Shown here: positions 28,260 to 59,006 of the stretch, in pieces | Position numbering within the stretch: position 1 is the stretch's first letter | Layout: every line of letters begins with the position of its first letter | Origin: Acidobacteriota bacterium | GTDB lineage: Bacteria; Acidobacteriota; Blastocatellia; RBC074 | DNA length: 64,000 nucleotides | Direction of reading: 5' to 3' | Assembly: GCA_043718445.1 (NCBI GenBank) | Contig: JAYSVR010000026.1 | Coordinates: forward strand, 2,900 to 66,899 | Made by a program: the position numbers and the translations under genes | Notes under the pieces: model-generated | Seen by the model: only the letters and a program-made list of their open reading frames with translations | What the model was told of the DNA's origin: nothing | Database searches by the model: none

Positions 28260-29324
28260 TCAGTGTTTTCCGTTCGCCGCGCCCCGCGCAGGCACGTGAG
28301 CACGTAACCAGCGATCCAACGCCGCTTTGCTTTCCAGCGCGACTGGTTGTTTTAAGTCAATCAGTTGATTCAGCAAAAGCTCGACACTCTCTAACGAGAG
28401 CCGTCCCAGCCGTTTGGTAGTAGCTTCGTTCAACGAACCCAGACGTTGTGTTAAAAGCAATAGCACGATTTCGAGCTTGCCTTCGCGTTTACCTTTCTCC
28501 AAGCCTTTCTCCAAGCCTTTCTCCAGGCCTTCCGCCAAACCTTTCTCCAGACCTTCCTCCCTACCTTTCGCCAGTCCTTCTTGTTTCCAAGTCGTTGCAT
28601 AAGAGGTTGCATATTGCATAACAGTTTCTTTCTCCTTCGGTTCAAAACAATCTACTTCTGTTTCAAATTCGGTGGTCTGTGCGGGAGTCAACGGCAGATA
28701 AGCGTCAATGAAATGCCACAACGGCCACCGCTTCTTTTCAGGTAATTGCAATCGGGCCAGCATGCGCAAACAAGCGGCGCGAACTTTCGGACGTTCTTTC
28801 GGTTCGACTCCCATTTTCGCCATCAAGGCGCTCGCCACTGGATTGTCGCGTTGCAAATAGTCGCGCCAGTCAAGTCGGTTTAATTGAATCGTGGCGAAGT
28901 TGAATTCCAGCACACGCCGATCAGGAAACTCAACTTTATACTGCCCCGGTTCCGCCGCGCGCGGGCTGTCCCACGAAAACAGCGCAATCGGATAAACCGG
29001 CAGATCGTGTTTATAGCTCTGCACGGCGAAGTAATAAAACATCCGTTTGGGCGACCAGCCGCGCTTGCCCGATTGCACTTCAGTGTGAATCAGGAAATAA
29101 GTCGGCTGTCCGCGCAAGCGCGCCTTGACCAACAGATCAACCGCGCGCCGTTCGTTTGAGGTAATTTCGCCGAAACTTTCCTGTTCAATAAACTCAAGGG
29201 AATTCACATCAAGGTGGCGCACCACTTCGGGCAAAAACAATTCGAGGAAGTCTACGAAACAAACGCGCAGCACTTCCTTGAAAAGCTGATCGTGTTCGAT
29301 GGGTTGGCGCTTGGGTTGTTTCAT
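28260..29324 (-). CDS. Rpn-family (YhgA-like) recombination-promoting nuclease / putative transposase with a C-terminal DUF4351-like tail
   Basis: The N-terminus HDQLFKEVL...FLIHTEVQS is the PD-(D/E)XK YhgA-like core. The C-terminus has an EGLEKGL tandem repeat encoded by a 12-nt periodic DNA repeat at 28489-28570. The start ATG overlaps the upstream enolase stop codon (ATGA). Confidence 0.65.
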   Translation of the reverse strand: MKQPKRQPIEHDQLFKEVLRVCFVDFLELFLPEVVRHLDVNSLEFIEQESFGEITSNERRAVDLLVKARLRGQPTYFLIHTEVQSGKRGWSPKRMFYYFAVQSYKHDLPVYPIALFSWDSPRAAEPGQYKVEFPDRRVLEFNFATIQLNRLDWRDYLQRDNPVASALMAKMGVEPKERPKVRAACLRMLARLQLPEKKRWPLWHFIDAYLPLTPAQTTEFETEVDCFEPKEKETVMQYATSYATTWKQEGLAKGREEGLEKGLAEGLEKGLEKGLEKGKREGKLEIVLLLLTQRLGSLNEATTKRLGRLSLESVELLLNQLIDLKQPVALESKAALDRWLRAHVPARGAANGKH

Positions 29325-54364: not shown

Positions 54365-54651
54365 CTCGCTTGAGCGTTTTCTTTATAGTTCAACTCTGAC
54401 ATACCAGTTGCCAATAGCCTAAGCACTCAGCCACTTAGCGACGCTTTACGCTGGTGCGAAGCAACCGTTGGCTTCGTGTTCCGCACTCTTCCAAACCACA
54501 CGGCGCACTGGCTACGGCATTGAGCCAGCCGCGCGAAGTCGCCTATACTGCGCGCCGCCCCGAACGTACTTAGCCCGGCATTATCGGCACGACATCAATT
54601 TAGCTTCACTGACGGCAAGCAGAGTTTCACTGACTTGAGGAACAGCAAGGT

Positions 54652-57516
54652 ATGGCAGACCAATTCAACTACGACGTATTCCTGAGCCACAGCAGCCACG
54701 ACAAAGACATCGTGCGCGCCGTCGCCGAACGCTTGCGGGCAGACGGGCTGCGCGTGTGGTTGGATGAATGGATATTGAAGCCCGGCGACAGCGTTCCGGC
54801 GAAGATTGACGAAGGCTTGGAGCAGTCGCGCGTGCTGGTGCTGTGCATGTCCGCGCAGGCGTTCGGCTCTGACTGGGCGCAGTTGGAAAGTTATACGTTC
54901 CGGTTCCGCGACCCGCTGAATAAAGGGCGGCGCTTCGTTTCGCTGCGACTCGATGCGGCAGAGATCAAGGCTTCGCTGGCGCAATTCTTCTATATCAACT
55001 GGCTGCCGGAAGCGCGCGAGCAAGAGTATGCCAAGTTGCTTGAAGCCTGCCGCCCGCCTGCTCCGCCCTTGCTTGACCGGCGCGCCGTGGAGCTAGCCTA
55101 TCTGAACCGCTTGCAGGCAGAAGAAGAACTCGATCAAAACCGGCAAACGCGGCGTTACACGCAACTCGGCGGGCAGGCGCAAAAGCTTCGTCCTAAAGTC
55201 TGCGCGGCATACGAACGCCGCTCGGCGCGCGAGGGCGAGCCGCAAGCGCCCGAGCCGGTTGAGAACGTCGTTGAAACAATTCTCACGCTGCGACAAGCCG
55301 CGTTGCTCGGCGAACCCGGGGCCGGCAAAACCACTACGCTTTGGTTGCTGGCCGTCAACTTGCTCGCAACGGCACGCCAAAATTCAGCAGCGCCGCTGCC
55401 ATTGTTGATTCGTTTGGGGCGCTGGACCGAAGCCGAACAAACGCTGCCGGCGTTTATGGCTGCGCAATTGGGGGAACTCGGCGCGCATCTCGAAACGCTC
55501 CTCCAAGAAAAACGCGCGGCGTTGTTGTTAGATGGCTTGAATGAATTGCCCGTCAGCCAGCGCAAAAGCAAATATCCGCAAGTGCAAAAACTCATTAAGC
55601 AATATCCGCAGTTGCTGGCGGTCGTTTCGTGCCGCCAGCTCGATTACGAAGACAAAGATAATGAGCTTAAGCTGGGCTTTGATGTCATCAACATCAAGCC
55701 GCTCGACCCGCTGCGGATGCTTGAGTTTGTGCAACGCGATTTGGGTGATGACGAACTGGGCGAGAAAATGTTTTGGGACGAGTTGGCGGGTAAGGATACG
55801 CAACAAACCTATCAACGCTTTAGGCAGGAGGTCGCCAGCCAATTGAAAGAGCCGGAACAGACTTTCTGGAACGCAGGCCGCTTGCCGTCGGGCGTGTATT
55901 GGGGTTGGCGTTATCGCGACGAAAAAGACGAGAAGCCTGACAACAGCTATTGGGAAAACTGGCTGAAGCGGCGCGACCAGCCCTCGAGCCTGATGCTGAT
56001 GGCGCGTAACCCTTACCTGCTTTCGATGCTGGTTTCAGAATTCGCGGAGGCGCGCAAACTGCCGGACAATCGCGGCGATTTGTTTCGGGCCTTTGTCAAA
56101 CGCTTGCTGCAACGCGAATGTGAGTCGTTGACCGATGAGGCACAACAAACGGCCTTGCGCGGCGAGCACGAAACCTTAAAGCAGAAACTTGCGGAACTCG
56201 CTTTCGCCATGCAGGTTCGCCGGAATGAAGGCACAGAAAGCGATGCCTGGACGGCGCTGCCCAAAGCCGCCGCGCTCGACATTTTGACCGAGCCGCAATT
56301 TTATCTGGCGGGCAACGCCAGCATCCTCAGCCTTAATGAACCGGTGCGCTTTTCGCATCAACTCTTGCAGGAATATTTCGCTGCGCAATTCATGGACATC
56401 CGCTTCCGCGCCGGAGACTTGCAAGCCGAAAAGCTGTGGCCGCGCACCAACTGGTGGGTGCGCACGAACTGGGAAGAGGCCGCAGTGTTATGGGCAGGCT
56501 TGAAAACCGCTGATTGCTCAGAGGTCGTCGAATGGATCGCCGCCGCCAACCCCGAAGTCGCCGCGCAATGCATCGTGCGCAGCGGCGCGCATACGCCTGA
56601 CGCCACGAGCGCACGGTTGCGTGACCAATGGTTGCCGCGTCTGGCTGATCTAAATCTCGAACCTGAACCGCAAGCCCGCGCCGCGCTTGGGCGCGCGTTA
56701 GGGCAAATTATCGGCTTGGATAATCGTCAGGGGATTAGCTTGCCTGACCTCAAGCGCGACGAAAGCTGGATCGAAATTCCCGGCGGTAAGTTTCAATACG
56801 GATTAGCCAATGACGACTGGGCCGCGAAACCGAGCCAGCCAGATTTAGCTACTTTCTGGATCAGCCGCTATCCGGTCACGCACGCGCAATTCCGCTGCTT
56901 TCTGGATGACGCCGAAGGGCACGGCGACTCGCGTTGGTGGGAAGGCTTGGCAGCGAACGAAGACAGCCGCCAACCCGTCGAACCGTCTTTCAAATTCGAC
57001 AATCATCCCCGCGACACGGTGAATTGGTACGAAGCCGTCGCCTTTTGCCGCTGGCTGTCGTGGCGTTGGGGCGGTGGCTATGACTTGCGCAAGATTGACG
57101 ACTGGAAGGTGCGGCTGCCCACCGAGTTTGAATGGGAGAAAGCGGCGCGCGGGACTGACGGGCGGCTCTATCCATACGAGGGCGAATTCGACCCGACCAA
57201 GAGCAACGTGGATAAAACTGGTATTGGCAAGACTAGCGCCGTGGGAATTTTCCCCAACGGTGCGTCGCCTTATGGCGTTGAAGAAATGAGCGGCAACGTG
57301 TGGGAGTGGTGCTTGAGCGATTACGACAAGCCGCAAAAAGACGCACGCAAAGAGAAATTGGGCACGGATAATAATCGTGTCCTGCGGGGCGGCGCGTGGA
57401 ACTACGATCGGGACGACGCGCGCGCCGTCTTTCGTAACCTCAATCCGCCGGGCTTCCGTAACGACGATCTCGGTTTTCGGGTGGTGTTGTTTCGTCCCCC
57501 TTCTGTTCTGCTCTGA
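54652..57516 (+). CDS. TIR - NACHT-like STAND NTPase - FGE/SUMF1(formylglycine-generating-enzyme fold) three-domain protein, a candidate immune sensor/effector
   Basis: TIR: YDVFLSHSSHDKDIVRAVAERLRADGLRVWLDEW...KIDEGLEQSRVLVLCMSAQAFGSDWAQLE, with a Glu in the GLEQS position. NTPase: Walker A GEPGAGKTT, Walker B LLLDGLNEL, sensor VVSCRQ. C-terminus: FGE-sulfatase fold (YPVTHAQF..NHPRDTVNWYEAVAFCRWLS..RLPTEFEWEKAARG..YPYG..SPYGVEEMSGNVWEWC..RVLRGGAWNYDRDDARAVFRN..GFR) but with no Cys in the region where FGE has its catalytic cysteine pair. Confidence 0.85.
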   Translation: MADQFNYDVFLSHSSHDKDIVRAVAERLRADGLRVWLDEWILKPGDSVPAKIDEGLEQSRVLVLCMSAQAFGSDWAQLESYTFRFRDPLNKGRRFVSLRLDAAEIKASLAQFFYINWLPEAREQEYAKLLEACRPPAPPLLDRRAVELAYLNRLQAEEELDQNRQTRRYTQLGGQAQKLRPKVCAAYERRSAREGEPQAPEPVENVVETILTLRQAALLGEPGAGKTTTLWLLAVNLLATARQNSAAPLPLLIRLGRWTEAEQTLPAFMAAQLGELGAHLETLLQEKRAALLLDGLNELPVSQRKSKYPQVQKLIKQYPQLLAVVSCRQLDYEDKDNELKLGFDVINIKPLDPLRMLEFVQRDLGDDELGEKMFWDELAGKDTQQTYQRFRQEVASQLKEPEQTFWNAGRLPSGVYWGWRYRDEKDEKPDNSYWENWLKRRDQPSSLMLMARNPYLLSMLVSEFAEARKLPDNRGDLFRAFVKRLLQRECESLTDEAQQTALRGEHETLKQKLAELAFAMQVRRNEGTESDAWTALPKAAALDILTEPQFYLAGNASILSLNEPVRFSHQLLQEYFAAQFMDIRFRAGDLQAEKLWPRTNWWVRTNWEEAAVLWAGLKTADCSEVVEWIAAANPEVAAQCIVRSGAHTPDATSARLRDQWLPRLADLNLEPEPQARAALGRALGQIIGLDNRQGISLPDLKRDESWIEIPGGKFQYGLANDDWAAKPSQPDLATFWISRYPVTHAQFRCFLDDAEGHGDSRWWEGLAANEDSRQPVEPSFKFDNHPRDTVNWYEAVAFCRWLSWRWGGGYDLRKIDDWKVRLPTEFEWEKAARGTDGRLYPYEGEFDPTKSNVDKTGIGKTSAVGIFPNGASPYGVEEMSGNVWEWCLSDYDKPQKDARKEKLGTDNNRVLRGGAWNYDRDDARAVFRNLNPPGFRNDDLGFRVVLFRPPSVLL

Positions 57517-57619
57517 TCACTGTTCCTGGGCGGTGCGCGAAGCGCAGGCGCGTATGCGCCAGCCCGCTGCGCCGCTTTGGGCGCAGCCGAAAATTTTTTT
57601 GCTTTTTGACACAGTGAGC

Positions 57620-57730
57620 TGACTGCCGCCCCGCAGGTTCGTCATGATGCGTGCCGTCAATCGTAACAACAACTCGCCGGGCAACCGTAACAACAATACG
57701 GGTTTTCGGCTGTTGGTGGCGCGTCCCACT
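57620..57730 (+). pseudogene. Degenerate duplicate of the last about 100 nt (FGE-domain C-terminus) of the upstream gene
   Basis: Encoded AVNRNNNSPGNRNNNTGFRLLVARP parallels the gene tail AVFRNLNPPGFRNDDLGFRVVLFRP. Nucleotide identity is about 75 percent with identical register. Confidence 0.45.
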
Positions 57731-57929
57731 CCTTTCGTCCCTCTTCAAGGGCCTGAGGCACGGGCTTCAGTGCGAGTCGTCCTTTTTGTTTATCAAGAAG
57801 CGAGGCTTCCAGCATTGCTGGCCGAGTAAGCTTTGCCAGCCGCAGCGAAGAACTGAAAGAAGGCGCAGTCGAGTCCCGTCCGCACGGCCAAGCTGAATAA
57901 AGCCAAACACCGTCGGGCGCATACAAAAG

Positions 57930-57959
57930 CAACAGCCGGACACGCGTGTCCGGCTGTTG
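57930..57959 (+). terminator. Perfect 15-bp palindromic hairpin (caacagccggacacg/cgtgtccggctgttg), terminator-like
   Basis: Read from the sequence. It is followed by a weak T-tract tcgtatcc. Confidence 0.35.
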
Positions 57960-58067
57960 TCGTATCCCGCCAGCCAAGTCTTGATAGCCAGTGCAACAGC
58001 GGCTGGCGTATGATGCTCGCGCATCGAAACGGAGGTCACATTTATGGTTTTATCAGGGGTTTCATCA

Positions 58068-58319
58068 ATGCCCATCATCAAGGTACGCGACAAGCTGACG
58101 AGCTTGCCCGAAACGCTGGCGAGTGCGCCGGGCGCGCTTGAAGTGACGCGGCGCGGCAAGCCCGTGCTGGCAATCTTGTCGTGGGAGCTTTACGAATCCA
58201 TCGTTGAAACTTTGGAGATTTTAGGCGACTCAGAACAATTAACGGCGCTGCGTCAGGGCATCAAAGACGCTGACGCAGGACAGGCAATTGAATGGACACA
58301 AGCCAAACAAGGGCTTTAA
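58068..58319 (+). CDS. Phd/YefM-family type II antitoxin
   Basis: MPIIKVRDKLTSLPETL..EVTRRGKPVLAILSWELYESIVETLEIL matches the Phd/YefM pattern. Confidence 0.6.
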   Translation: MPIIKVRDKLTSLPETLASAPGALEVTRRGKPVLAILSWELYESIVETLEILGDSEQLTALRQGIKDADAGQAIEWTQAKQGL

Positions 58320-58350
58320 CATTTGCCTTACCAAATGGAGCATTACAACT

Positions 58351-58602
58351 ATGATACAGACAGCGAGAGCCGAAGTGAGTATTGACGGGCAAGTGCATCT
58401 GCTTGAACCGCTGCACGTCACCCAAACCAGTCCTGCCATTGTGACTTTGTTGAACACTGAGAACGGTTACGCCAAACCCCAAAAAGGCAACGCCCAGACG
58501 ATGTTGCAATTTCTCGAAGAAAACCGTTTGCCTGAAAGCGCCCTGCCTACAACAGACGAGATCGAAGCCCAAATTTTGGAGGCGCGCGAGTCATGGGCGT
58601 GA
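58351..58602 (+). CDS. Antitoxin-family protein (DUF104/AF2212-like N-terminus) partnered with the downstream PIN toxin
   Basis: AEVSIDGQVHLLEPLHVTQTSPAIVTLL resembles the small beta antitoxin fold. The stop overlaps the VapC start. GGAG lies upstream of ATG 58351. Confidence 0.45.
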   Translation: MIQTARAEVSIDGQVHLLEPLHVTQTSPAIVTLLNTENGYAKPQKGNAQTMLQFLEENRLPESALPTTDEIEAQILEARESWA

Positions 58603-59006
58603 ATCCATTGCGGGTTTATTTCGATGCCTGTGTCGCCATTTACCTGATCGAAGAACATCCAACGTTCGGGCCGCTAATTGAGGCGCGACTGGCGCAGACC
58701 CCAGAAGCGGTAATTCAGGTTTCAGAATTGACCGAGATGGAATGTTTGGTGATGCCGCTCAGAAAGCGGAATCAACCGCTGCTCGACAAATTCCGCCGTT
58801 GGTTCGACAAGGTCGAAGTGTTGTCGGTTGAACTTGAGGTGTTCCGCCGAGCGGCTCAGTTACGCGCAGATTTTGCCGGGCTGAAAACTCCCGATGCCAT
58901 TCATCTGGCTACGGCATTACATTATGGCTGTGATGAGTTCTGGACGAATGACAACCGTCTGAGTCACATCGCGCCTGCACTCGTGAAAGACATCCTTTCA
59001 ACGTAA
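58593..59006 (+). CDS. vapC: PIN-domain ribonuclease toxin VapC
   Basis: VYFDACVAIYLIE ... DAIHLATAL ... DEFWTNDNRL show the conserved acidic PIN residues. Confidence 0.8.
   Translation: MGVNPLRVYFDACVAIYLIEEHPTFGPLIEARLAQTPEAVIQVSELTEMECLVMPLRKRNQPLLDKFRRWFDKVEVLSVELEVFRRAAQLRADFAGLKTPDAIHLATALHYGCDEFWTNDNRLSHIAPALVKDILST

What the first reader, a model, noticed from the sequence alone, without database searches (positions are those of the whole stretch)
54652..57516. TIR-NACHT-FGE(SUMF1) STAND protein with a catalytically dead FGE domain: a candidate immune sensor-effector
A single 954-aa ORF combines three domains. First, an N-terminal bacterial TIR domain with an intact Glu in the GLEQS position, the usual NADase catalytic site. 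Second, a NACHT-type STAND NTPase (GEPGAGKTT Walker A; LLLDGLNE Walker B with the NACHT-typical acidic pair). Third, a C-terminal formylglycine-generating-enzyme/SUMF1 fold. The FGE domain has no cysteine where FGE has its catalytic Cys pair (RVLRGGAWNYDRDDARAVFRN..GFR). It therefore cannot mature sulfatases and is more likely a ligand or protein-binding sensor. This architecture fits the logic of bacterial NLR-like antiphage systems (sensor - ATPase switch - TIR effector). The gene sits in a defence-island-like neighbourhood with toxin-antitoxin genes and a Uma2 nuclease. Whether this domain combination has been characterised cannot be judged from sequence alone.
Basis: partly seen in the sequence, partly recalled or inferred. 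Interest (0 to 1): 0.85.

Follow-up and report, generated by a model that had tools for sequence, protein, structure and literature searches.

The report
NLR-like receptor with retroelement-diversified sensor tip
The gene encodes a bacterial immune-type receptor (TIR effector, NACHT switch, lectin-like FGE sensor) whose ligand-binding tip was once rewritten by a mutagenic retroelement that survives here only as a broken template copy, a kind of system already described by computation but never tested.

Summary
The 954-aa ORF (54652-57516, +) and its TIR, NACHT and FGE-sulfatase domains are real.

The supposedly dead active-site stretch is the variable region (VR) of a diversity-generating retroelement (DGR). 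Across 119 homologues, 15 of codons 917-940 are hypervariable between invariant scaffold residues. VR dN/dS is 2.4-3.3, against 0.15-0.25 elsewhere in the gene.

About 130 nt past the stop codon lies a 5'-truncated, AAC-rich template repeat (57649-57733). It is followed by a conserved structured RNA segment shared with complete DGRs in relatives. Three relatives carry RT, Avd and a TR, with 92-100% of VR/TR mismatches at TR adenines. Here only 45% fall at adenines, and no RT or Avd lies anywhere in the 64 kb.

So this is an intact, selectively maintained NLR-like receptor with a fossil or trans-dependent DGR. NACHT-FGS "antigen-receptor" proteins, including TIR-bearing DGR targets, are already described computationally (Kaur 2020, Kibby 2022/23, Doré 2024), though I found no tested member. 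Verdict: new member of a known kind, moderate interest.

The parts
54520..54549 (+). Probable native promoter (TTGAGC - 18 nt - TATACT)
   Evidence: Consensus scan. The same TTGAGC..TATACT motif is present upstream of the orthologues in L001 and L003, although the rest of the upstream DNA is unrelated. Function is inferred.
54652..57516 (+). TIR-NACHT-FGE(CLec) gene, 954 aa, intact
   Evidence: dN/dS against orthologues is 0.24-0.26 overall, so the gene is under purifying selection.
54676..55041 (+). TIR domain (residues 9-130). The catalytic-position Glu is E79 (codon 54886-54888) in SDWAQLES.
   Evidence: Pfam TIR_2, E 6.9e-24. PDB sequence hits to AbTir, PdTIR and TcpB, with E79 aligned to their active-site Glu. 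E79 is invariant in 37 homologues. Foldseek matches AbTir, PdTIR and MyD88.
55297..55653 (+). NACHT nucleotide-binding domain (residues 216-334). Walker A GEPGAGKT is at 55309-55332 and Walker B LLLDGLNE at 55522-55545.
   Evidence: Pfam NACHT, E 8.5e-9. Motif coordinates. Motifs invariant in the family. Foldseek matches NOD2, NLRP3, NLRC4 and NAIP5.
55654..56760 (+). Helical region between the NBD and the sensor (residues 335-703). It is NLR-like (helical / winged-helix type) and includes the conserved WWxRTNWEEAA..ANPEVAAQC block.
   Evidence: AF2 pLDDT is 80-90 and mostly helical. Foldseek alignments of 550-650 columns to NLR NACHT modules cover it. Conservation. The subdomain assignment is inferred.
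56761..57486 (+). FGE-sulfatase / C-type-lectin-fold sensor domain (residues 704-945), lacking the catalytic Cys pair
   Evidence: Pfam, E 1.8e-49. Domain model pLDDT 89. Foldseek matches ToxD, EgtB, FGE, pFGE and TvpA. Cys pair absent.
57381..57507 (+). DGR variable region (VR). Hypervariable codons are 917-922, 929-932, 935 and 937-940 (nt 57400-57471), interleaved with invariant scaffold residues.
   Evidence: Homologous to template repeats. Column entropy exceeds 3 bits at those codons and is below 1 bit at W916, A923-V926 (V926 1.18 bits), R928, P933, R936 and G941-R943 in 119 homologues. VR dN/dS is 2.4-3.3 with lower dS than the rest of the gene.
57517..57611 (+). Conserved GC-rich hairpin cluster and T-run immediately after the stop. 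It is a likely terminator and possibly the DGR target-recognition hairpin.
   Evidence: Identity is about 87-91% to the same position in L084, L085 and L004, and about 93% to L001 (my estimate from the alignment), higher than the coding sequence. MFE fold -41.4 kcal/mol with three or four hairpins. The role is inferred.
57625..57643 (-). Inverted 19-nt fragment of the 5' edge of the template repeat. It marks a rearrangement that removed the first ~40 nt of the TR.
   Evidence: Reverse complement of L001 4524-4542 (18/19), the start of that locus's full-length TR. Sequence shown.
57649..57733 (+). Template repeat (TR) remnant, 85 nt, AAC/AAT-rich, 5'-truncated
   Evidence: 74% identity to VR 57420-57504, blastn E 1.2e-13. 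10 of 22 mismatches lie at TR adenines (hypergeometric P 2.4e-3). 98% identical to the TR of L001 and 78-91% to the TRs of L085 and three complete DGRs. The TR 3' end CCCACTCCT against VR CCCCCTTCT recurs in most loci (L087 and L088 read CCCACTTCT).
57734..57977 (+). Conserved non-coding segment 3' of the TR, a probable structured part of the DGR RNA (spacer-like), ending in a 13-bp hairpin at 57930-57959
   Evidence: Homologous to the segment after the TR in all eight loci, including the three with an RT. RNAalifold finds 44 pairs, 16 of them with compensatory changes. No Rfam match. The window copy carries a 12-nt insertion in the last conserved helix.

Best explanation
The gene encodes a bacterial NLR-like (NACHT/STAND) receptor of the 'antigen-receptor type'.

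Sensor. The C-terminal FGE-sulfatase domain is not an enzyme. It is a C-type-lectin-fold binding domain whose last ~28 residues form the variable region of a diversity-generating retroelement (DGR). In this protein family an error-prone reverse transcriptase (RT) copies an AAC-rich template repeat (TR), randomises the adenines, and writes the copy over the VR. This creates new binding surfaces on an invariant scaffold.

Proposed mechanism (inferred). Ligand binding at this surface releases the NACHT NTPase to oligomerise. Oligomerisation brings the N-terminal TIR domains together and switches on NAD+ cleavage through E79. The cell is then killed or arrested, as in abortive infection, or a signal is produced.

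State of this locus. The receptor gene is intact and under purifying selection, but the diversifying machinery is a relic. The TR is 5'-truncated and rearranged, non-adenine differences have accumulated, and no RT or Avd is encoded in the 64-kb window. The receptor specificity is therefore probably frozen, unless an RT elsewhere in the genome acts in trans.

What is shown and what is inferred.
- Shown: domains, motifs, the VR/TR relationship, family-wide hypervariability, and complete DGRs in relatives.
- Inferred: ligand sensing, oligomerisation, NADase output and the antiphage role.
For: Architecture and catalytic motifs.

VR/TR in the window:
- A direct repeat of the gene's 3' end lies 130 nt past the stop (E 1.2e-13).
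- In register the downstream copy reads CGT AAC AAC AAC TCG CCG GGC AAC CGT AAC AAC AAT.
- Mismatches are enriched at TR adenines: 10/22, P 2.4e-3. Against the full-length TR of orthologue L001 the figure is 15/30, P 5e-5.

Family-wide signature:
- 15 hypervariable codons coincide with A-containing TR codons. The invariant codons between them are A-free.
- VR dN/dS is 2.4-3.3 with dS 0.12-0.22. Elsewhere dN/dS is 0.15-0.25 with dS 0.3-0.9.

Complete DGRs next to homologues:
- L086 (51% identity): RVT_1 and bAvd are called, and 18 of 19 mismatches lie at TR adenines.
- L004 (49% identity): 12 of 13, with RT motifs IGNLTSQ and YVDD.
- L088 (62% identity): 15 of 15.

The window's TR and the ~190 nt after it are homologous to those elements.

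Decay in the window's clade:
- No RT or Avd is found by tblastn in the window, L001-L003 or L084.
- L084 has a TR with an internal ~24-nt deletion, and L085 has a TR plus an intact Avd but no RT.
- L087 has a TR plus only a 30-aa Avd fragment.

Conflict-system character: a conserved NACHT-FGE core with swapped N-terminal effectors and adaptors.

Literature describing this class.
Against: - No function has been tested for any FGS-type NACHT protein in the papers I could read. Antiphage activity, NADase activity and the ligand are all inferred.
- The adenine bias in the window pair is only 45-50%, against 92-100% in complete DGRs. The pair would fail the usual criteria of DGR-finding tools.
- The TR is the most conserved segment among the RT-less loci (91-98%, against 80-81% for adjacent coding DNA). 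This fits uneasily with a long-dead element and leaves a trans-acting RT possible.
- Only 64 kb of the genome could be searched.
- The neighbourhood gives no independent support for a defence role.
- The full-length AF2 model is poor for the sensor (pLDDT below 50), so inter-domain geometry is unknown.
Confidence: 0.75

Rival explanations
1. The DGR is still active in trans. An RT-Avd pair encoded elsewhere in the genome uses the TR and structured RNA carried next to each receptor gene (or another intact TR) to keep diversifying this VR.
For: - TRs of the RT-less loci are 91-98% identical to each other, while the flanking coding DNA is 80-81% and the VRs 67-72%. This suggests purifying selection on the TR.
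- The RNA segment after the TR is retained and covaries.
- One genome (GCA_016196035.1) holds two family members. One has a TR and an intact Avd; the other has only a TR.
- Doré 2024 reports incomplete DGR loci that are diversified in trans.
Against: - The window's TR lacks its first ~40 nt and has an inverted fragment at the break.
- The RNA segment has a 12-nt insertion in a conserved helix.
- 12 of 22 VR/TR mismatches are at non-adenines. Repeated homing would erase such differences.
- No RT or Avd lies in 64 kb.
- The orthologue P0003 is identical at protein level in two different samples.
Confidence: 0.15
2. The protein is a signalling or housekeeping STAND NTPase unrelated to immunity, for example kin or self recognition, developmental cell death, or sensing of a small molecule or glycan by the lectin-fold domain. 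On this view the TIR acts as an adaptor rather than an NADase.
For: - There is no conserved linkage to known defence genes.
- FGE-type CLec domains bind diverse ligands.
- Kaur 2020 places such systems in multicellular or social bacteria and discusses roles beyond simple phage defence.
Against: - The catalytic-position Glu is invariant.
- N-terminal swapping with trypsin, alpha/beta-hydrolase, SEFIR and EAD8 adaptors, with a separate EAD8-patatin protein encoded beside the receptors, is typical of conflict effectors.
- Targeted hypermutation of the sensor implies an arms race with a variable ligand.
Confidence: 0.08
3. The C-terminal domain is an active SUMF1/EgtB/PvdO-type enzyme, as the NCBI product name 'nonheme iron enzyme' implies, and the protein regulates or performs a redox modification.
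For: Public annotations name homologues 'SUMF1/EgtB/PvdO family nonheme iron enzyme' or 'formylglycine-generating enzyme'. The fold matches those enzymes.
Against: - Both FGE cysteines are absent.
- NCBIfam EgtB, SenA, OvoA and PvdO scores are 33-76 bits against cut-offs of 360-500.
- Pfam reports no DinB-like iron-binding domain.
- The would-be active-site loop is the hypervariable region.
- No sulfatase or thiol-histidine pathway genes are nearby.
Confidence: 0.02

Closest known systems
DGR-diversified STAND/NACHT-CLec 'antigen sensor' targets (RT clade 5D of Doré et al. 2024, PMC10907252; FGS-type bNACHT of Kibby et al. 2022/2023; Kaur et al. 2020, PMC7159879)
   Same: - Central STAND NTPase, a single C-terminal FGE-type CLec domain carrying the VR, and an N-terminal effector or EAD8 adaptor. 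TIR N-termini are explicitly mentioned in Doré 2024.
- Relatives at 49-62% identity sit in complete DGRs with RT, Avd and TR, often with two or three targets.
   Different: - In the window the RT and Avd are missing, the TR is truncated, and the adenine bias is eroded.
- The host is an acidobacterial-type lineage rather than the purple sulfur bacteria and cyanobacteria emphasised in those papers. This rests on the names of homologues; the taxon of the window itself was not determined.
- I found no experimentally tested member of this class in the passages I read.
Experimentally studied bacterial NACHT proteins (bNACHT01 and others, Kibby et al.) and Avs/AVAST STAND defence proteins
   Same: Tripartite effector / STAND NTPase / C-terminal sensor layout. 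The NACHT module resembles animal NLRs. TIR is a recognised effector type.
   Different: - The tested members listed in Kibby's legend carry LRR, HEAT, TM or short C-terminal (NCH1) regions, and characterised Avs sensors are TPR-like. None listed has an FGE/CLec domain.
- PADLOC Avs and bNACHT models do not hit this protein. The PADLOC TIR-NLR model matches only the TIR part.
DGR variable proteins Mtd (Bordetella phage BPP-1) and TvpA (Treponema denticola, PDB 2y3c)
   Same: FGE-type or C-type-lectin fold with the VR at the C-terminal end. TvpA is a direct sequence hit (E 1.2e-11) and a structural hit (E 1.2e-12, TM 0.65). The VR aligns to the TvpA VR.
   Different: Mtd is a phage tail-fibre protein, and TvpA, to my knowledge, is a surface lipoprotein. 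Both bind ligands outside the cell. Here the domain is fused to an NTPase switch and a TIR effector in a single polypeptide and is presumably cytoplasmic (localisation was not tested).
Formylglycine-generating enzyme (SUMF1) and its inactive paralogue pFGE (SUMF2)
   Same: Same fold and conserved scaffold motifs (RLPTEaEWE, GNVWEW, RGGsW, LGFR).
   Different: The Cu-binding Cys pair is absent, as in pFGE. There is no secretory or ER context and no sulfatase linkage, and the loop is hypervariable.
Bacterial TIR NADases (AbTir, PdTIR, Thoeris ThsB, TIR-SAVED)
   Same: The TIR_2 fold is about 30% identical to AbTir and PdTIR, and the active-site Glu is conserved.
   Different: Here activation would come from a fused NACHT switch rather than a separate sensor or a cyclic nucleotide. 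The product (NAD+ depletion or a signalling nucleotide) is unknown.

Membership tests
NACHT-clade STAND NTPase (bacterial NLR-related protein) | NACHT nucleotide-binding module with Walker A (GxxxxGKT/S) and Walker B (hhhhDGhDE-like) | tested here: met
   Pfam NACHT, 35.9 bits against a cut-off of 26.7. GEPGAGKT at 220-227 and LLLDGLNE at 291-298, invariant in the family. Foldseek top hits are NOD2, NLRP3, NLRC4 and NAIP5.
NACHT-clade STAND NTPase (bacterial NLR-related protein) | Tripartite layout: N-terminal effector, central NTPase, C-terminal sensor | tested here: met
   TIR 9-130, NACHT plus helical region 216-700, FGE 704-945. The N-terminal module is swapped among homologues.
NACHT-clade STAND NTPase (bacterial NLR-related protein) | Protection against phage that depends on the NTPase and the effector | not testable with these tools
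   Needs heterologous expression and phage challenge.
DGR target (variable protein) | C-type-lectin / FGE-type fold with a variable region at the C-terminal end | tested here: met
   (TvpA hit). Hypervariable codons 917-940. VR dN/dS 2.4-3.3.
DGR target (variable protein) | Cognate template repeat differing from the VR almost only at TR adenines | tested here: inconclusive
   A TR remnant is present (E 1.2e-13) and the adenine bias is significant. But only 10/22 mismatches lie at adenines (45%; 15/30 against the L001 TR), compared with 92-100% in L004, L086 and L088. The TR is also 5'-truncated.
DGR (complete element) | DGR-type reverse transcriptase ((I/L/V)GxxxSQ and YxDD motifs) near the TR | tested here: not met
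   No RT was found in the 64-kb window by motif scan or by tblastn with the L004 and L086 RTs. The rest of the genome was not available.
DGR (complete element) | Accessory variability determinant (Avd) | tested here: not met
   tblastn with the L086 Avd finds nothing in the window, nor at relaxed E-values in 57500-58100.
Formylglycine-generating enzyme (SUMF1) | Catalytic Cu-binding cysteine pair after the RGGS(Y/W) motif | tested here: not met
   No Cys after residue 887. Both Cys of Streptomyces FGE align to gaps in the query.
Formylglycine-generating enzyme (SUMF1) | Genomic or functional link to sulfatases | tested here: not met
   No sulfatase in the window neighbourhood or in seven homologous loci.
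EgtB/OvoA/SenA sulfoxide (selenoxide) synthases | Full-length match including the N-terminal DinB-like iron-binding domain | tested here: not met
   NCBIfam EgtB scores 75.9 bits against a cut-off of 360 and SenA 66.1 against 420. Only the FGE-like half matches.
TIR-domain NADase | TIR fold with the conserved catalytic glutamate | tested here: met
   TIR_2, E 6.9e-24. E79 aligns to the AbTir and PdTIR Glu and is invariant. That this position is the catalytic Glu (AbTir E208) rests on my own knowledge.
TIR-domain NADase | NAD+ cleavage activity | not testable with these tools
   Needs a biochemical assay.
PADLOC 'TIR-NLR' / Avs systems | Full-length match to the system's profile | tested here: not met
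   PDLC03015 TIR-NLR matches only residues 9-79 (E 6.5e-6). No Avs or bNACHT model was reported.

The most novel reading that the evidence does not exclude
In this acidobacterial-type clade each receptor gene travels as a self-contained cassette: promoter, receptor, hairpins, private template repeat, then structured RNA. The RT-less cassettes are not dead. They are served by a single RT-Avd pair encoded elsewhere, forming a distributed DGR in which templates rather than only targets are dispersed. The unusually high conservation of the TRs among RT-less loci would then reflect ongoing selection.
Probability: 0.12. Interest if true: 0.7.

Novelty: new member of a known kind. Interest (0 to 1): 0.4.

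Why it matters
DGR-diversified NLR-like receptors are the closest bacterial analogue of an anticipatory receptor repertoire. They combine a germline-encoded switch and effector with a sensor tip that is rewritten by targeted hypermutation. The class is known only from comparative genomics.

This locus adds three things:
- A TIR-armed member from an acidobacterial-type lineage.
- A documented series of decay states (complete, Avd only, TR only, truncated TR) within one protein family. The series shows that receptors are kept under purifying selection after the diversifier is lost.
- A conserved, covarying RNA segment 3' of the TR that could help define the DGR RNA of this retroelement clade.

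For experiments, the complete relatives L086 and L088 are better starting points than this window.

The finding also corrects a misleading public annotation ('SUMF1/EgtB/PvdO family nonheme iron enzyme') for more than a thousand proteins.

Tried and rejected
1. The look-up of encoding contigs on the exact protein returned nothing, and the listing of cluster members gave no accession or organism. The source genome could therefore not be searched for an RT.
2. An exact-pattern scan of JGI metagenome contigs with a 36-nt TR core found no match. I did not use the second scan.
3. The genome-contig scan with the family alignment mostly returned generic FGE-domain proteins. Only L004-L006, L008 and L010 were real family members.
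4. My first RT motif scan missed the RT in L004 because the spacing window was too strict. I corrected this after reading the ORFs and cross-checked it with tblastn.
5. The full-length AF2 model with 37 sequences gave an unusable FGE domain (pLDDT below 50). I re-ran the domain alone with 119 sequences.
6. Rfam found nothing for 57300-58100.
7. The repeat finder with default extension did not report the VR/TR pair. It needed blastn with a +1/-1 scoring scheme.
8. I considered and rejected an active FGE or EgtB enzyme, a pseudogene (dN/dS), and a paralogue fragment as the origin of the downstream repeat. The repeat is AAC-rich, matches the TRs of complete DGRs, and is followed by the same RNA segment.
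9. A defence-island context did not hold up.

Full report
**1. The observation**

Pfam gives three domains above their curated thresholds:
- TIR_2, residues 9-130, E 6.9e-24.
- NACHT, residues 216-334, E 8.5e-9.
- FGE-sulfatase, residues 704-945, E 1.8e-49.

Walker A (GEPGAGKT, 220-227) and Walker B (LLLDGLNE, 291-298) are present. Both are invariant in an alignment of 37 full-length homologues.

A full-length AlphaFold model is confident for the NACHT and helical part (pLDDT 80-90) but not for the sensor. Its Foldseek hits are animal NLR NACHT modules (NOD2, NLRP3, NLRC4, NAIP5) for the centre, and AbTir, PdTIR and MyD88 for the N-terminus.

A model of the C-terminal 274 residues, built with 119 homologues, is confident (pLDDT 89.2, pTM 0.89). 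It matches ToxD, EgtB, FGE, pFGE and the DGR variable protein TvpA.

**2.

The TIR glutamate. In HMMER alignments to AbTir, PdTIR and related solved TIR domains, the query's SDWAQLE aligns to their KDWTNYE / KEWPQKE. E79 therefore occupies the position of their active-site Glu. That this is AbTir E208 rests on my own knowledge. The GLEQS glutamate (E57) faces SGLRNS / KGLGSS. E79 is invariant in the family and E57 is not.

The FGE cysteines. The protein has no cysteine after C887. In the alignment to Streptomyces FGE ([23 protein letters not shown]), both catalytic cysteines fall in insertions that the query lacks. NCBIfam models for EgtB, SenA, OvoA and PvdO match only the FGE-like half, at a fraction of their cut-offs.

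**3. What the dead active site really is**

A blastn search of the gene's last 230 nt against the window, using a permissive scoring scheme, found one strong extra hit. Positions 57420-57504 match 57649-57733, 74% over 85 nt, E 1.2e-13, on the same strand. The hit starts 130 nt after the stop codon.

In register, the downstream copy reads ...GTC AAT CGT AAC AAC AAC TCG CCG GGC AAC CGT AAC AAC AAT ACG GGT TTT CGG. Where it has AA, the gene has TT, CT, TT, G., G.. This is the template-repeat / variable-region (TR/VR) relationship of a diversity-generating retroelement.

The adenine bias is significant but eroded:
- 10 of 22 mismatches lie at TR adenines, while adenines are 21% of the TR (hypergeometric P 2.4e-3).
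- Against the full-length TR of the closest orthologous locus with a TR (L001), the figure is 15 of 30 (P 5e-5).

**4. Family-wide confirmation**

The database search found more than 1,100 proteins with the same NACHT-FGE core, mostly named as Acidobacteria, Blastocatellia or Chloroflexi MAG proteins. Their N-termini are interchangeable: TIR, SEFIR, alpha/beta-hydrolase, trypsin-like peptidase, EAD8 adaptor, or combinations.

In 119 of them the FGE domain is strongly conserved (mean column entropy 1.17 bits). The exceptions are codons 917-922, 929-932, 935 and 937-940, which exceed 3 bits. These sit between scaffold residues that are nearly invariant at under 1 bit (V926 is 1.18): W916, A923-V926, R928, P933, R936 and G941-F942-R943. 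Every hypervariable column corresponds to an A-containing TR codon, and the invariant ones to A-free codons.

Between the window gene and its orthologues P0002 and P0003, dN/dS is 0.15-0.25 in the TIR, NACHT, helical and FGE-scaffold segments. In the VR it is 2.4-3.3, with a lower dS than elsewhere. This is what mutagenesis of first and second positions of AAY codons produces. The same numbers show that the gene as a whole is maintained by selection.

**5. Complete DGRs in relatives, decay in this clade**

| Locus | Protein and identity to query | RT | Avd | TR | VR/TR mismatches at TR adenines |
|---|---|---|---|---|---|
| L086 | EAD8-TIR-NACHT-FGE, 51% | yes (RVT_1) | yes (bAvd) | intact | 18/19 |
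| L004 | family member, 49% | yes (IGNLTSQ, YVDD) | yes | intact | 12/13 |
| L088 | alpha/beta-hydrolase-NACHT-FGE, 62% | yes | yes | intact | 15/15 |
| L001 | P0003, 78% | none within 10 kb downstream | none | full length, 125 nt | 15/24 |
| L084 | P0006 | none | none | internal ~24-nt deletion | not applicable |
| L085 | P0008, same genome as L084 | none | intact | full length | 19/40 |
| L087 | P0005 | none | 30-aa fragment only | present | 16/23 |
| window | this gene | none in 64 kb | none in 64 kb | 5'-truncated | 10/22 |

L086 also carries two further EAD8-NACHT-FGE targets and an EAD8-patatin gene.

In the window, the first ~40 nt of the TR are gone. A 19-nt piece of its 5' edge is present in inverted orientation at 57625-57643. 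tblastn with two RTs and an Avd finds nothing in the window.

**6. The cassette and its RNA**

Homology between the window and the orthologous loci L001 and L003 starts at the ATG, preceded by a shared TTGAGC-N18-TATACT promoter-like motif at 54520-54549. Where the contig allows, it ends at about 57977. The flanking genes are unrelated.

The ~95 nt after the stop form GC-rich hairpins plus a T-run. They are better conserved than the coding sequence: 87-91% to L084, L085 and L004, and about 93% to L001 by my reading of the alignment.

The ~190-245 nt after the TR are homologous in all eight loci, including the three with an RT. RNAalifold predicts 44 pairs, 16 of which are kept through compensatory changes. 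Rfam has no matching family.

I read this as the structured 3' part of the DGR RNA. It would be analogous to the spacer that is needed for priming in the Bordetella phage DGR. That comparison rests on my own knowledge and is not tested here. The window copy carries a 12-nt insertion in the last conserved helix.

**7. An unexplained point**

Among the RT-less loci, the TR is the best conserved segment:
- TR: 91-98%.
- Preceding FGE coding DNA: 80-81%.
- RNA segment after the TR: 79-81%.
- VRs: 67-72%.

A long-dead TR should not be the most conserved piece. Either the loss of RT is recent, or an RT elsewhere still uses these templates. The structural lesions and the non-adenine mismatches argue for decay in the window. 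I cannot settle the question with 64 kb of sequence.

**8. Mechanism**

Shown:
- A TIR domain with the catalytic-position Glu.
- A NACHT NTPase with intact Walker motifs.
- A lectin-fold domain whose tip has been hypermutated on an invariant scaffold.
- Modular exchange of the N-terminal effector.

Inferred, by analogy with characterised Avs, bNACHT and eukaryotic NLR proteins and with bacterial TIR NADases: ligand binding at the VR surface relieves autoinhibition. The NACHT module then oligomerises in a nucleotide-dependent way. The clustered TIR domains cleave NAD+ or make a signalling nucleotide, leading to growth arrest or death of the infected cell.

The ligand is unknown. The history of hypermutation implies a variable partner, most plausibly a phage or other invader protein.

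**9. Comparison with the literature**

- Kaur et al. 2020 describe FGS domains, often DGR-linked, as components of NTP-dependent conflict systems.
- Kibby et al. list the 'FGS domain type' as one of two antigen-receptor-type sensors of bacterial NACHT proteins and note likely DGR diversification. The domains listed for their tested set are LRR, HEAT, REase, TIR, TM, NNH1 and NCH1, not FGS.
- Doré et al. 2024 show that an RT clade commonly diversifies STAND (NACHT or nSTAND1)-CLec targets, some with TIR or peptidase N-termini. They also discuss incomplete loci and trans activity.
- A 2026 survey of defence STANDs shows AlphaFold models of FGE-sulfatase sensors. It does not mention DGRs.

A search for papers combining DGR, NACHT and TIR returned only these computational works. 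The architecture is therefore known, and its function remains untested.

**10. Verdict**

The finding is a new, partly decayed member of a described class, not a new kind of system.

Interest is moderate (0.4). The class is exciting and experimentally open, but this locus is not its best representative and nothing in it contradicts current ideas.

Noticed in passing
window 57734-57977; also L001 4655-4898, L004 15483-15306 (-), L086 15063-14839 (-), L088 12962-13136: A conserved non-coding segment immediately 3' of the template repeat is shared by all eight DGR loci examined. RNAalifold predicts 44 pairs, 16 with compensatory changes, and there is no Rfam family. It could define the structured part of the DGR RNA for this retroelement clade.
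   Followed up: partly
TRs: window 57649-57733, L001 4530-4654, L085 10926-11050: Among loci that have lost the RT, the template repeat is the most conserved DNA (91-98%), against 80-81% for adjacent coding sequence. This is unexpected for a dead element and remains unexplained. Either the loss is recent or an RT acts in trans.
   Followed up: partly
L085 11233-11574 (-): An intact bAvd gene (78% identical to that of a complete DGR) sits next to a TR and a TIR-NACHT-FGE target, with no RT detectable in about 10 kb on either side. A 764-aa ORF without Pfam hits occupies the place where an RT would be expected.
   Followed up: partly
L086 7933-22596: A complete DGR island holds three NACHT-FGE targets (one with TIR), an EAD8-patatin gene, and Trypco1, Uma2 and GntR genes just upstream. 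GntR (upstream) and Uma2 (downstream) also flank the window gene. This may be coincidence.
   Followed up: no
L003 583-2478: The closest orthologue (P0002, 84% identity) lies directly downstream of a protein kinase that has a weak TCAD9 (ternary-complex-associated domain) hit. This is a different conflict-system-type neighbour from those in the window.
   Followed up: no
window 58288-58602 (+): A 104-aa ORF without Pfam or PADLOC hits overlaps the end of the Phd/YefM gene (58044-58319) and the start of the PIN gene (58593-59006). It may be the cognate antitoxin of the PIN toxin, which would make two TA-type genes in a row.
   Followed up: no
window 28479-28580: A run of six 42-nt windows offset by a 12-nt tandem period (GCCTTTCTCCAA-like, 74-100% identity) was seen in the window-wide repeat scan.
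   Followed up: no
public annotation of homologues: Hundreds of these receptors are named 'SUMF1/EgtB/PvdO family nonheme iron enzyme' or 'formylglycine-generating enzyme required for sulfatase activity'. These names are misleading, given the missing catalytic residues and the DGR variable region.
   Followed up: yes
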